Positions 32,451 through 34,310 of a DNA stretch of 36,228 bases are shown piece after piece. Source of the stretch: a virus; the UHGV virus genome UHGV-0248752; one strand, written 5' to 3'. A model generated the notes under the pieces. That model worked only from the letters and a program-made list of their open reading frames with translations, ran no database searches and was not told the DNA's origin. Both the position numbers and the translations under genes were made by a program. Positions within the stretch are counted from its first letter, which is position 1. Every line of letters starts with the position of its first letter.

Positions 32451-33331
32451 TGTTTCATGTTGATAATAATTCCGGCGTGGCGAATATGCCTGCGCTGGCA
32501 CCGGCGCAGAGTAATACCACCACCTGGTTTACCGAAGGTGACGGACAAAAAGGTATCAGCTGGATTGGTCAGGACTGGCTGAATATTCTCCAGGCCGAAC
32601 TGCTGAATATTCTGGCTGAAGCCAGTATTCAGCCGGATAAGGCGCAGTTAAACCAGCTTACGCTGTCCATTAAAGCCATTATCGCTGCGAATGCCTTTTC
32701 CCGGAAAAATAACCTGAAAGAAATTGCTGATGCCGGTGCGGAGGCCCAGCGTCTGGCCCGTGGTTATCTTGGTCTGGGGACGCTTGCCACAAAAAACAGT
32801 CTTGGTCCCGCTGACGTTAATGCCCTGGCGAAGGATCAGAATCTCGCCGACCTGGAGAATAAGGGAACCGCCCGTAATAATCTGGATGTTTACAGCAAAA
32901 GCGAAGGTGATAACCGTTACCTGCGCAGGGAGCAGAACGGCGCAGACATTCCGGATAAAGGGGCTTTTATCGATAACGTCGGTTTACGGGAAACGGTAAA
33001 CAGGGCGGCGAATGCCCTGCCATCGGACGGCACCGCCGTTGCCGCGAACAGGCTGGCAAATGCCCACACAATTAATGGTGTTCCCTTTGACGGGACGCAG
33101 GATATCACTATCTCATCAGGAACAGTAACCGCCATAAGACTGGGGTCGGTGACCGCACATATGCCCGGAACATGGGAAAGCTGGGATCTGAATCTGGGGG
33201 GCGGCAATGTTCTTACCGGAATTAAAGTACAGGATGTCGGTAAGAATACGGCAGATAACGTCGGCGGCGTGTATTACCGGCCGTTGCAGTATCTGTTAAA
33301 TGGAGCATGGGTGACGGCTGCAAGTATATAA
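32450..33331 (+). CDS. Tail fibre protein: constant N-terminal part (residues 1 to about 176) fused to the currently expressed variable C-terminal tip
   Basis: 293 aa. The ORF crosses the left recombination site at 32967-32992, so its last 117 aa are encoded inside the invertible segment. Position after the baseplate genes. Confidence 0.85.
32967..32992 (+). other. Left gix-like crossover site (TTATCGATAACG-TC-GGTTTACGGGAA)
   Basis: 26-bp site of two imperfect inverted half-sites around a 2-bp core (TC at 32979-32980). Inner half identical to the inner half of the right site. Resembles the Gin/Hin/Cin crossover-site family as I remember it. Confidence 0.7.
32981..33102. repeat. Left copy of the inverted repeat flanking the invertible segment
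   Basis: 32981-33053 is the reverse complement of 34224-34296 with a single mismatch. A second shorter block, 33081-33102, matches 34175-34200. Between them is a roughly 25-bp divergent patch. Encodes the conserved 41 aa [38 protein letters not shown]. Confidence 0.85.
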
Positions 33332-33339
33332 TGATATTC

Positions 33340-33359
33340 AGAAGGCCTTCCGGCCTTCT
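33340..33359. terminator. Bidirectional hairpin terminator between the convergent fibre and chaperone genes
   Basis: agaaggcc-ttcc-ggccttct (8-bp stem, 4-nt loop) followed by TTATT, lying in the 31-bp gap between the fibre stop (33329-33331) and the minus-strand chaperone stop (33363-33365). Confidence 0.55.
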
Positions 33360-33362
33360 TTA

Positions 33363-33884
33363 TTACTGTGGCTGCTCAGGCCATTTAATGGCGTTAAATT
33401 CAGCTTCTGTTTTAATGGCGGGTAGTTCCATTTTCTTCACCTGACTGATGTATGCCATCCATTGGGTAAGTGCTGCTCTGTCTTCATCGCTGATGGTGCC
33501 CAGTTGTAGCTCCGTTCTCCAGTCATTAATTTTTTCATATGCCTGATTAAGATATGACTGGCGCATTGCTTCCAGTTTTCTTGCGTAGTTAACCGGAATA
33601 CGGGAGATTATGCCATTATCAAACTTCCAGTTTCCTGAAATATCCGTGCCTTCAGGGAGTTCATCGACCTCAACCACAGAAAACCCCGCAGGATACAGCG
33701 CCGAGGCGTCCTGTGATATTGAGCAGATAACGCCGCTGTCAGGTGTTATGCAAAGTTTATATTTTTTGGTGAATAATGGCAGGGATTCGTAGAAATCCTT
33801 ACCATCTTCACTCTGGAAATACTGAACATTATTACCATATGGCATATTTTCAGGATAATAACGGGTTATATTTTTTAGTTCCAT
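33363..33884 (-). CDS. Tail fibre assembly protein (chaperone, U-prime-like) inside the invertible segment
   Basis: 173-aa minus-strand ORF with a strong RBS aggagg upstream of its ATG at 33884. Convergent with the fibre gene and co-oriented with the alternative fibre tip. Confidence 0.85.
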   Translation of the reverse strand: MELKNITRYYPENMPYGNNVQYFQSEDGKDFYESLPLFTKKYKLCITPDSGVICSISQDASALYPAGFSVVEVDELPEGTDISGNWKFDNGIISRIPVNYARKLEAMRQSYLNQAYEKINDWRTELQLGTISDEDRAALTQWMAYISQVKKMELPAIKTEAEFNAIKWPEQPQ

Positions 33885-33935
33885 AAAATCCTCCTGGAAA
33901 TAAATCTGTTTTAAAATATATTATTTACTGACTAT

Positions 33936-34296
33936 TTATAACTGAGATACCGTAATCCATGTACCTCCGACTAATTTTTGCAGGGGTCTGAATGCTATAA
34001 AATCGTTTGAAGCATCAACTTTACTGTCAATCTGCAGGCCTGCCATAACATTACCGTACGCAGAGTAATATGCCCCACCGTACATTACCTGCCTGTTCTC
34101 TGCTCCCAGCCTGATATCCTGGATATATCGGGAATCCGCATCCTGCTGTGTTATACCAGAAGTGATGTTTATGTCCTGCGTCCCGTCAAAGGGAACCCCA
34201 TTAATATTTCTTGGGGTGGCGAGTCTATTCGCGGCAACGGCGGTGCCGTCCGATGGCAGAGCATTCGCCGCCCTGTTTACCGTTTCCCGTAAACCG
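33936..34296 (-). pseudogene. Alternative tail-fibre C-terminal cassette (S-prime-like), promoterless and frameshifted
   Basis: Minus-strand frame contiguous with the crossover core reads [52 protein letters not shown]... and hits a stop at 34051-34053. The +1 frame then continues ...IRLGAENRQVMYGGAYYSAYGNV...GGTWITVSQL to a stop at 33936-33938 and resembles the current tip (IRLG, GGxYY, GxWxT). A 1-nt indel lies near 34105-34150. Confidence 0.6.
34175..34296. repeat. Right copy of the inverted repeat flanking the invertible segment
   Basis: Reverse-complement match to 32981-33102 (see left copy). Produces shadow ORFs in the six-frame track at 34162-34362 (+) and 32917-33207 (-). Confidence 0.85.
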
Positions 34297-34310
34297 AGGT
34301 TTTCAGGAAA
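34285..34310 (+). other. Right gix-like crossover site (TTCCCGTAAACC-GA-GGTTTTCAGGAA)
   Basis: Reverse complement is TTCCTGAAAACC-TC-GGTTTACGGGAA, i.e. the same core dinucleotide and the same inner half-site as the left site, in inverted orientation. Core at 34297-34298. Confidence 0.7.

What the first reader, a model, noticed from the sequence alone, without database searches (positions are those of the whole stretch)
32967..34310. G-segment-like invertible tail-fibre switch with gix-like crossover sites next to a Gin-family invertase
Two 26-bp sites, 32967-32992 and 34285-34310, have inverted orientation, identical 2-bp cores and identical inner half-sites. They bracket a roughly 1.3 kb segment whose two ends are inverted repeats (one mismatch over about 70 bp). 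The left site lies inside the tail-fibre ORF at codon 177, so inversion would swap the fibre C-terminal tip. A Gin homologue is encoded 65 bp outside the right site. This is a complete host-range switching module, and it is shorter than the roughly 3 kb Mu G segment and differently organised.
Basis: partly seen in the sequence, partly recalled or inferred. Interest (0 to 1): 0.7.

Follow-up and report, generated by a model that had tools for sequence, protein, structure and literature searches.

The report
Compact Mu-type invertible tail-fibre switch
This is a small relative of phage Mu's G segment: a 1.3 kb stretch in an E. coli Mu-like prophage that a Gin-type enzyme flips to exchange the tip of the tail fibre; the kind of switch is well known, and public genomes carry this one in both orientations.

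Summary
Two 26-bp gix-like sites lie in inverted orientation. They share a 2-bp core and an identical inner half-site, and they sit at the outer ends of an 86-nt inverted repeat. They match Mu gixL and gixR at 22/26 and 21/26 positions, and the left site lies at the same point of the S gene as in Mu. The adjacent 190-aa recombinase is 74% identical to Mu Gin and keeps Ser9, Met114 and the Fis/enhancer contact residues. Flipping the segment in silico joins the constant 177 codons to a second intact C-terminus. That flipped sequence occurs in other complete E. coli genomes. One same-site lysogen pair is identical over 42.6 kb apart from the inversion, and its exchange point maps to 19 bp that include the core. 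A related O157/Sp18-type locus also occurs in both orientations (25 vs 182 genomes). The element is therefore a working member of the Gin/gix family, not a new kind. It differs from Mu in its cargo. Each cassette is about 120 codons, little more than the distal tip. There is only one tail-fibre assembly gene, and it is antisense in the window's orientation. How that tip is folded is unexplained.

The parts
32450..32978 (+). Constant N-terminal part (Sc) of the tail-fibre gene S. It lies outside the invertible segment.
   Evidence: The ORF 32450-33331 encodes 293 aa. Residues 1-191 match Mu tail-fibre protein S (5yvq_A, 8ju3_A; E about 1e-46).
32967..32992 (.). Left gix-like crossover site, TTATCGATAACG-TC-GGTTTACGGGAA, with the core at 32979-32980 inside codon 177 of S.
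   Evidence: It matches Mu gixL at 22/26 positions and sits in the same place in S. The site is conserved in relatives L006, L008 and L009.
32972..33057 (.). Left arm of the inverted repeat. It encodes residues shared by both fibre forms.
   Evidence: The arm is 86 nt and 93% complementary to 34219-34304. The register and mismatch positions are shown.
32981..33331 (+). Sv cassette, the C-terminal tip expressed in the window's orientation (residues 178-293).
   Evidence: The translation is. The C-terminal 70 aa or so resemble the distal tips of Mu S and S', and the tips of P2 gpH, P1 S and SfMu S'.
33340..33359 (.). GC-rich hairpin between the convergent Sv and tfa genes, likely a terminator.
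   Evidence: The terminator-like scan reports an 8-pair stem with 5 G-C pairs, followed by TTATT.
33363..33884 (-). The only tail-fibre assembly (chaperone) gene in the segment, 173 aa. It is co-oriented with Sv' and antisense to S in the window's orientation.
   Evidence: It matches Pfam Caudo_TAP (PF02413) at 4.8e-19 and Mu protein U (5yvq_B) at 4e-16. dN/dS against relatives is 0.14-0.15.
33936..34295 (-). Sv' cassette, the silent alternative C-terminal tip. After inversion it is fused in frame to Sc.
   Evidence: The in-silico flip gives a 296-aa ORF. The tip matches the Mu S tip in 5yvq_A at 8e-8 and the P2 gpH family. RefSeq annotates it as a 'phage tail protein, missing N-terminus'.
34219..34304 (.). 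Right arm of the inverted repeat.
34284..34309 (.). Right gix-like crossover site, TTCCCGTAAACC-GA-GGTTTTCAGGAA, with the core at 34296-34297.
   Evidence: It matches Mu gixR at 21/26 positions. It is the only match in the window at up to 3 mismatches, with 0.00 expected by chance.
34375..34947 (+). gin homologue, a 190-aa small serine DNA invertase.
   Evidence: It has the Resolvase domain (1.6e-51) and HTH_7 (4.9e-15). It is 137/184 identical to Mu Gin and keeps S9 and M114. It also keeps Q150/R153/L154 and K46/R47/K50, which correspond to the Hin residues that contact Fis and the enhancer.
34396..34459 (.). Putative Fis-bound recombinational enhancer (sis) inside the 5' end of gin. It consists of two G-N13-C 15-mers (34396-34410 and 34445-34459) about 49 bp apart. 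This part is inferred.
   Evidence: Both 15-mers are conserved in a gap-free alignment with the Mu gin 5' end. Identical-codon use at conserved residues is 15/24 in codons 1-30 against 34/107 elsewhere (p = 0.009). The placement of the enhancer in gin comes from the literature title cited and from memory.

Best explanation
The window is a Mu-like (Sp18-type) prophage of E. coli. Positions 32980-34296 form a 1317-bp invertible segment homologous to the Mu G segment.

Inferred mechanism: the adjacent Gin-type serine invertase binds as dimers to the two 26-bp gix-like sites. It is probably activated by host Fis bound to an enhancer in the 5' end of its own gene. It cuts at the 2-bp core, rotates the strands by 180 degrees and religates them.

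Because the left core lies in codon 177 of tail-fibre gene S, inversion keeps the baseplate-proximal 177 residues. It exchanges the last 116 residues (Sv) for an alternative 119 residues (Sv'). In the flipped state the single tail-fibre assembly gene also comes to lie downstream of S' on the late transcript. The expected result is two virion types with different receptor-binding tips, that is, a host-range bet-hedging switch.

Shown here: the anatomy, the homology to Gin and gix, intact reading frames in both states, and natural occurrence of both states with the exchange mapped to the site. Inferred: catalysis by this Gin, dependence on Fis, and the host-range effect.
For: - **Sites and repeat.** Their geometry is confirmed.
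- **Homology to Mu.** The sites match Mu gixL/gixR at 22/26 and 21/26 with the same GA core, and lie at the homologous place in S.
- **Invertase.** Gin is 74% identical to Mu Gin and has the Resolvase and HTH_7 domains. Catalytic S9, M114 and the invertase-specific Fis/enhancer contact residues are present.
- **Both reading frames intact.** The in-silico flip yields an intact 296-aa S'. Both tips belong to the Mu S/S', P2 gpH and P1 S tip family.
- **The flipped form exists.** The flipped 2601-nt sequence is found at 99.7-99.9% identity and 100% coverage in four complete E. coli genomes. Strains DLI.5a and TOE17 carry one copy in each orientation.
- **Same-site lysogen pair.** FORC_029 and NCCP 13983 carry the prophage at the same site, in a truncated fimbrial-usher (FimD/PapC-type) gene next to elfD. 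They differ over 42,601 bp only between window positions 32998 and 34278. Flipping at the core leaves 0 differences.
- **Exchange point.** In that pair, arm polymorphisms at 32998, 33001, 33003 and 33016 travel with the segment, while 32974 and 32978 stay in place. The exchange is therefore confined to 32979-32997, which is the core plus the inner half-site.
- **Relatives.** The O157/Sp18-type relative has the same layout, intact ORFs in both states (295 and 303 aa), and is found in both orientations (25 vs 182 genomes), including within O157:H7.
Against: - There are no reads or experiments from the strain of the window, so activity here is inferred from near-identical prophages.
- The left site has G instead of the conserved C next to the core (AACG|TC). 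The authors of the SfMu paper suggested that a change next to the core might impair G inversion.
- The enhancer is supported only by conservation.
- Orientation counts are skewed (20:6 and 182:25). This could reflect slow switching and shared ancestry.
- In the window's orientation the only tfa gene is antisense. It has no sigma-70-like promoter reaching the scan's threshold of 9 matches out of 12. It is therefore unclear whether the S-Sv fibre folds, and so whether both states give infectious particles.
- In DLI.5a and AST46 gin is annotated as frameshifted, although both orientations exist there. Another invertase may act in trans, or these may be sequencing errors.
Confidence: 0.88

Rival explanations
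1. The two orientations arise by general (RecA) homologous recombination between the 86-nt inverted repeats. On this view the gix-like sequences and gin are not what drive the inversion.
For: The arms contain perfect stretches of 37 and 32 bp in the window. In principle these could support rare homologous exchange. Both orientations occur in strains whose gin is annotated as frameshifted.
Against: In the FORC_029 / NCCP 13983 pair the exchange is confined to 19 bp that begin exactly at the core. From general knowledge, this is shorter than the minimal efficient RecA substrate. The longest perfect block in that lineage (33017-33048) was not used. In DLI.5a the exchange again lies on the core side of 33016. 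The sites, the invertase and its contact residues are conserved as in Mu.
Confidence: 0.04
2. In this particular prophage the switch is a frozen relic. The parts look intact but inversion no longer occurs at a useful rate, for example because of the non-consensus base next to the left core or weak gin expression.
For: The window-like orientation predominates (20 vs 6 and 182 vs 25 genomes). The left site deviates next to the core, and the SfMu authors raised this kind of concern. A derivative that has lost Sv' and gin exists (L009).
Against: Prophages with the same two sites, the same left-site G, and a Gin either near-identical or (FORC lineage) possibly identical to the window's are found flipped. 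This includes a same-site lysogen pair with zero other differences in 42.6 kb, so the event is recent. gin, both cassettes and tfa are intact and under purifying selection.
Confidence: 0.07
3. Inversion is carried out mainly in trans by another Pin/Gin-family invertase of the host's other prophages, not by the adjacent gin.
For: Cross-complementation among Gin, Cin, Pin and Hin is established knowledge. PinQ of prophage Qin inverts the P segment of prophage e14. Both orientations occur where gin is annotated as frameshifted.
Against: The adjacent gin is intact in the window and in the FORC lineage. Across relatives that differ by 15-20% in DNA sequence, the 26-bp sites and gin are conserved together. 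This rival does not exclude the main explanation.
Confidence: 0.08

Closest known systems
Bacteriophage Mu G segment with Gin, gixL/gixR and the sis enhancer
   Same: The same family of Mu-like phage and the same gene order (gp47, gp48, S, segment, gin). Gin is 74% identical. The sites match at 21-22 of 26 positions with the same GA core. The crossover lies at the homologous codon of S. The constant part of S is homologous, and both tips are homologous to the distal tips of Mu S and S'.
   Different: The segment is 1317 bp against about 3.06 kb. Sv and Sv' are 116 and 119 residues against roughly 335 and 320, so about 210 residues of shaft are absent. There is one tfa gene instead of U and U'. 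The inverted repeat is longer (86 nt against 34-41 nt). The outer half-sites are not identical to each other, whereas the two Mu gix sites are identical over all 26 bp. The spacer between the right site and gin is 11 nt longer. A DUF6645/SASA esterase gene follows gin, where Mu has com-mom directly.
e14 P segment with PinE, and the pix-type segment in the 'Mu' prophage of EPEC E2348/69
   Same: A serine invertase lies next to an invertible tail-fibre C-terminus in an E. coli prophage. Both orientations coexist in cultures, as shown experimentally for these two.
   Different: The repeats are pix-type (AAACCTTGGTTTGGGAGAA, core TT) and the segments are 1.8-1.9 kb. The window has gix-type sites with a GA core. 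That e14 carries two tfa genes is from memory.
Phage P1 C segment with Cin, plasmid p15B Min, and Salmonella Hin/hix
   Same: The same enzyme family and the same 26-bp site architecture. The Fis/enhancer contact residues are conserved. An annotated Punavirus P1 tail-fibre tip is 52% identical to Sv.
   Different: Hin flips a promoter, not a coding cassette. P1 C is about 4.2 kb with 0.6 kb repeats, and Min has six sites (these three points are from memory). Only two sites exist in this window.
Carotovoricin Er tail-fibre inversion by Ein (Pectobacterium tailocin)
   Same: A small invertible region swaps only the C-terminal tip of a P2/Mu-type fibre.
   Different: It is a tailocin, not a phage, and uses a different invertase lineage. 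The detailed layout could not be read because the primary paper is not held.

Membership tests
Gin/Hin/Cin/Pin family of Fis-dependent DNA inversion systems | A small (about 190 aa) serine recombinase with an N-terminal resolvase catalytic domain, a catalytic serine at position 9/10, and a C-terminal HTH | tested here: met
   PF00239 at 1.6e-51 and PF02796 at 4.9e-15. The protein is 74% identical to Mu Gin with S9 aligned. The role of S9 is taken from PMC3575834.
Gin/Hin/Cin/Pin family of Fis-dependent DNA inversion systems | Two 26-bp sites in inverted orientation, each made of two imperfect 12-bp half-sites around a 2-bp core, with the core identical in both sites | tested here: met
   The sites are 32967-32992 and 34284-34309 with cores TC/GA. 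They match Mu gix, read from NC_000929, at 22/26 and 21/26.
Gin/Hin/Cin/Pin family of Fis-dependent DNA inversion systems | The invertase gene lies directly beside (or within) the invertible segment | tested here: met
   gin starts 65 nt beyond the right site.
Gin/Hin/Cin/Pin family of Fis-dependent DNA inversion systems | A recombinational enhancer with two Fis sites in cis, located in the 5' coding region of the invertase gene in Gin and Hin | tested here: inconclusive
   Two G-N13-C 15-mers about 49 bp apart are conserved with Mu. Synonymous conservation is raised in codons 1-30 (p = 0.009). Fis binding was not tested, and the published Mu Fis-site coordinates could not be retrieved.
Gin/Hin/Cin/Pin family of Fis-dependent DNA inversion systems | Invertase-specific residues that contact Fis and the enhancer (Hin Q151, R154, L155; basic residues 47, 48, 51) | tested here: met
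   Window Gin has Q150, R153, L154 and K46, R47, K50, compared with the list in PMC3798978. The +1 offset between Hin and Gin numbering is inferred from the Ser10/Ser9 positions.
Gin/Hin/Cin/Pin family of Fis-dependent DNA inversion systems | The segment actually inverts by exchange at the core | tested here: met
   This was shown by comparative genomics, not by experiment. Both orientations occur in public genomes. A same-site lysogen pair is identical after an in-silico flip at the core. The exchange is confined to 19 bp that include the core.
Mu G-segment-type host-range switch (S-U / U'-S') | The crossover lies inside the tail-fibre gene. The N-terminal part is constant, and two alternative C-terminal parts lie in opposite orientation. 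| tested here: met
   The core is in codon 177. The two ORFs are 293 aa and 296 aa. Homology to Mu S and S' is shown.
Mu G-segment-type host-range switch (S-U / U'-S') | Each alternative tip is followed by its own tail-fibre assembly gene (U and U') | tested here: not met
   Only one Caudo_TAP gene is present (33363-33884, minus strand), downstream of Sv'. The same holds in relatives L006, L008 and L009. Mu has two.
Mu G-segment-type host-range switch (S-U / U'-S') | The two orientations give virions with different host ranges | not testable with these tools
   This needs plaque or adsorption assays with phage locked in each orientation.
Multiple-inversion systems (p15B Min, shufflons) | More than two crossover sites, giving several permutations. 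For shufflons, also a tyrosine recombinase. | tested here: not met
   Only two gix-like sites are found in the window. The recombinase is a serine enzyme.

The most novel reading that the evidence does not exclude
The switch is asymmetric with respect to the chaperone. One orientation co-transcribes the tip with the only Tfa gene. The other orientation is the commoner one in genomes, and there Tfa is antisense. Two readings fit. Either a single Tfa serves two divergent tips through orientation-independent expression, or the Sv tip folds without a phage-encoded Tfa. In the second case the inversion would toggle both receptor specificity and the presence of Tfa on the fibre.
Probability: 0.25. 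Interest if true: 0.45.

Novelty: new member of a known kind. Interest (0 to 1): 0.3.

Why it matters
It adds a well-supported, minimal natural example to the Gin/gix family. The segment holds little more than two tip domains and one chaperone gene, and it occurs in a prophage lineage found in several hundred complete E. coli genomes, including O157:H7 (Sp18-type). Three practical consequences follow:
- Annotation pipelines mis-handle it. The silent cassette is called a pseudogene, spurious ORFs are called across the repeats, and S is not called at all in one O157 record.
- Assemblies of clonal strains differ here for trivial reasons, which matters for SNP and structural-variant typing.
- The single-chaperone layout gives a simple system for asking how Tfa proteins pair with fibre tips.

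It does not change what is understood about DNA inversion.

Tried and rejected
- **More than two sites (Min-like).** Searches with the full site and with the AAACC-NN-GGTTT core found only the two sites.
- **Prior descriptions.** The EPEC 'Mu' inversion of Goldberg 2014 is pix-type and 1.9 kb. The Mu-homologous inversion of Milman 2023 (CP066032) is a classical 3-kb S-U-U'-S' segment. Neither is this element.
- **Erwinia phage ENT90 as a single-tfa precedent.** It has two tfa genes in a more complex layout, so I did not pursue it.
- **A promoter for tfa on the minus strand.** The standard scan found none. A relaxed scan gave only 8/12 matches. The Sv'-tfa spacer is not conserved among relatives.
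- **Published Fis-site coordinates of the Mu enhancer.** Neither the Koch et al. 1991 paper (PMC329047) nor the review I sought (id from memory) is held in the library, and neither is the carotovoricin paper.
- **dN/dS on the cassettes alone.** The result is confounded because the best-matching ORF in some relatives is the other cassette. I used only the tfa and whole-S values.
- **First in-register comparison.** It was corrected.
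Full report
**Context.** The window is almost all of a Mu-like prophage of E. coli. It runs from a repressor-side end through transposase-sized ORFs and the head and tail genes to the baseplate genes. The region 32400-35000 is 100% identical to several complete E. coli chromosomes, for example JE86-ST05. It is about 83% identical to a Mu-like phage inserted in Stx-converting phages. The gene order around the finding matches Mu: gp47-like, gp48-like (Pfam Phage_Mu_Gp48), tail fibre, segment, invertase.

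**Checking the observation.** The repeat finder reports inverted arms at 32972-33057 and 34219-34304 (86 nt, 93%), plus a second block at 33071-33120 / 34156-34205. In register, the arms are perfect over 32979-33015, mismatch at 33016, and are perfect again to 33048.
- The left 26-mer is TTATCGATAACG-TC-GGTTTACGGGAA at 32967-32992.
- The cores are complementary, so the sites are inverted. The inner half-sites are identical and the outer half-sites differ.
- The core lies in codon 177 of the 293-codon ORF 32450-33331.
- gin begins 65 nt beyond the corrected right site.

**Anatomy.** Between the cores lie 1317 bp, containing:
- the last 116 codons of the fibre gene (Sv, plus strand);
- a GC-rich hairpin (33340-33359);
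- a 173-codon gene on the minus strand that matches Caudo_TAP and Mu protein U;
- a 119-codon open frame on the minus strand (Sv') that lacks a start codon and runs into the right repeat.

Flipping 32980-34296 in silico fuses Sc in frame to Sv' and gives a 296-aa protein. It also places tfa directly downstream, with an AGGAGG ribosome-binding site. Residues 1-191 of the fibre match Mu S in solved structures (E about 1e-46). The last 70 residues or so of both Sv and Sv' match the distal tips of Mu S and S', and of P2 gpH, P1 S and SfMu S'. Compared with the 504-aa Mu S, about 210 residues of shaft are missing. This, together with having one tfa gene instead of two, explains why the segment is 1.3 kb and not about 3.06 kb.

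**Comparison with gix and Gin.** I read gixL and gixR directly from NC_000929: TTATCCAAAACCTCGGTTTACAGGAA and TTCCTGTAAACCGAGGTTTTGGATAA. The window's sites match at 22/26 and 21/26 with the same GA core. The surrounding coding sequence is also homologous (GADIP.K..FI.N.GL.ETVNRA). The e14 and EPEC pix repeats differ: AAACCTTGGTTTGGGAGAA, core TT.

The 190-aa recombinase has the Resolvase and HTH_7 domains and is 137/184 identical to Mu Gin without gaps. It keeps:
- Ser9, the residue that links covalently to DNA, and Met114, whose mutation makes Gin Fis-independent;
- Q150/R153/L154 and K46/R47/K50, which correspond to the residues reported as uniquely conserved in Fis/enhancer-dependent invertases.

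In the 5' end of gin, two G-N13-C 15-mers (34396-34410 and 34445-34459) are conserved with Mu. Codon identity at conserved residues is 15/24 in codons 1-30 against 34/107 elsewhere (p = 0.009). This is consistent with an embedded enhancer but does not prove one.

**Does it invert?** I built the flipped sequence and searched 5,426 complete E. coli genomes.
- The window's orientation covers at least 80% of the query in 20 genomes, and the flipped form does so in 6. Four of those six are 99.7-99.9% identical over all 2601 nt.
- Strains DLI.5a and TOE17 carry one copy in each orientation.
- FORC_029 (window orientation) and NCCP 13983 (flipped) carry the prophage at the same chromosomal site, in a truncated fimbrial-usher (FimD/PapC-type) gene next to elfD. 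For a transposing phage this marks a single ancestral lysogen.
- Over 42,601 bp, these two differ only between window positions 32998 and 34278. After flipping FORC_029 at the core there are no differences at all.
- In that lineage the arms differ at 32998, 33001, 33003 and 33016 on the inner side, and at 32974 and 32978 on the outer side. The inner differences moved with the segment and the outer ones did not. The exchange therefore lies within 32979-32997, which is the core plus the inner half-site and five more bases.
- In DLI.5a the exchange lies between 32979 and 33015.

This pattern is expected for cleavage at the core. It is hard to reconcile with RecA-mediated exchange, which would more likely use the longer perfect block.

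**The wider lineage.** Relatives that differ by 8-17% in DNA sequence share the same sites and the same single-tfa layout: O157:H7 (L006), STEC299 (L008) and mouse strain M3 (L009). In L006 both states give intact fibre ORFs of 295 and 303 aa. That locus occurs in its own orientation in 25 genomes and in the flipped orientation in 182. Both are found within O157:H7. The M3-type locus has lost Sv' and gin and is locked in the window-like orientation.

**What is unexplained.** In the window's orientation, which is also the commoner one in genomes, the only tfa gene is antisense to the fibre gene. It has no convincing promoter of its own. Both tips nevertheless belong to a family whose members are normally followed by a tfa gene. 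I did not verify that association call by call. The evidence for it is the annotation of the Mu, P2, P1 and SfMu hits and general knowledge. tfa is under purifying selection (dN/dS 0.14-0.15). Three explanations remain open and need experiments: tfa is expressed independently of orientation, Sv folds without it, or a Tfa from another prophage substitutes.

**Comparison with what is known, and verdict.** Gin-type inversion of tail-fibre tips is textbook biology (Mu G, P1 C, e14 P). Genome-wide surveys have shown that such inversions are common in prophages. I found no description of this particular gix-type 1.3-kb single-tfa segment in the searchable library. The two nearest reports concern different elements.

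I therefore class it as a new member of a known kind, with a compact cargo as its one distinctive feature. The interest is modest (0.3).

Noticed in passing
window 35033-36228 (continues beyond the window): The gene after gin encodes a protein with a SASA carbohydrate-esterase domain (PF03629, 2.9e-14). RefSeq annotates it as a 684-aa DUF6645 protein. In related genomes DUF1378, DUF826, com and mom follow, so this lineage carries about 3.5 kb of extra cargo between gin and com-mom compared with Mu. It might be a surface-glycan-modifying or tail-associated enzyme.
   Followed up: partly
window 18269-18348, minus strand: A tRNA-like element lies in the gap between the head-morphogenesis and virion-morphogenesis genes. 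The Rfam tRNA model scores 31 bits (gathering threshold 29, E = 8e-5), and RefSeq annotates 'tRNA-OTHER' at the same place in relatives. ARAGORN finds no tRNA anywhere in the window.
   Followed up: partly
window 34310-34374 compared with Mu (L005 6039-6092): The spacer between the right crossover site and the gin start is 11 nt longer than in Mu (10-nt and 1-nt gaps in the alignment). This is roughly one helical turn, so the phasing between the site and the putative enhancer may be kept.
   Followed up: no
window 31934-32140 (5' part of the gp48-like gene): Nearly all of the first 40 (of 59) differences listed between the window and FORC_029 over 30900-36228 cluster in about 200 bp of the gp48/YmfQ-family gene. 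This suggests a recombination patch in a baseplate gene just upstream of the fibre gene.
   Followed up: no
L009 (E. coli M3, NZ_CP010183) 3432-4290: This derivative has lost Sv' and all of gin except its 3' end. It is locked in the window-like orientation, yet the antisense tfa gene is still intact.
   Followed up: partly
L003, L004 (DLI.5a) and L007 (AST46): These strains carry extra, rearranged copies of the prophage. There are truncated sheath and other phage genes directly upstream of S, and gin is annotated as frameshifted. These could be Mu-type transposition or rearrangement products, or long-read assembly errors.
   Followed up: no
L001 3046-3463; L006 1251-2140: RefSeq annotation is unreliable at this locus. 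Short 'hypothetical protein' ORFs are called across the repeats in flipped genomes. The silent cassette is labelled an incomplete pseudogene. In one O157:H7 record the intact 295-codon fibre gene is not annotated at all.
   Followed up: partly
E. coli complete genomes: Orientation counts are skewed towards the state with tfa antisense (20 vs 6 for the window type, 182 vs 25 for the O157/Sp18 type). The recombinant sites are identical in both states, so equal rates would be expected. The skew may reflect shared ancestry or selection.
   Followed up: no
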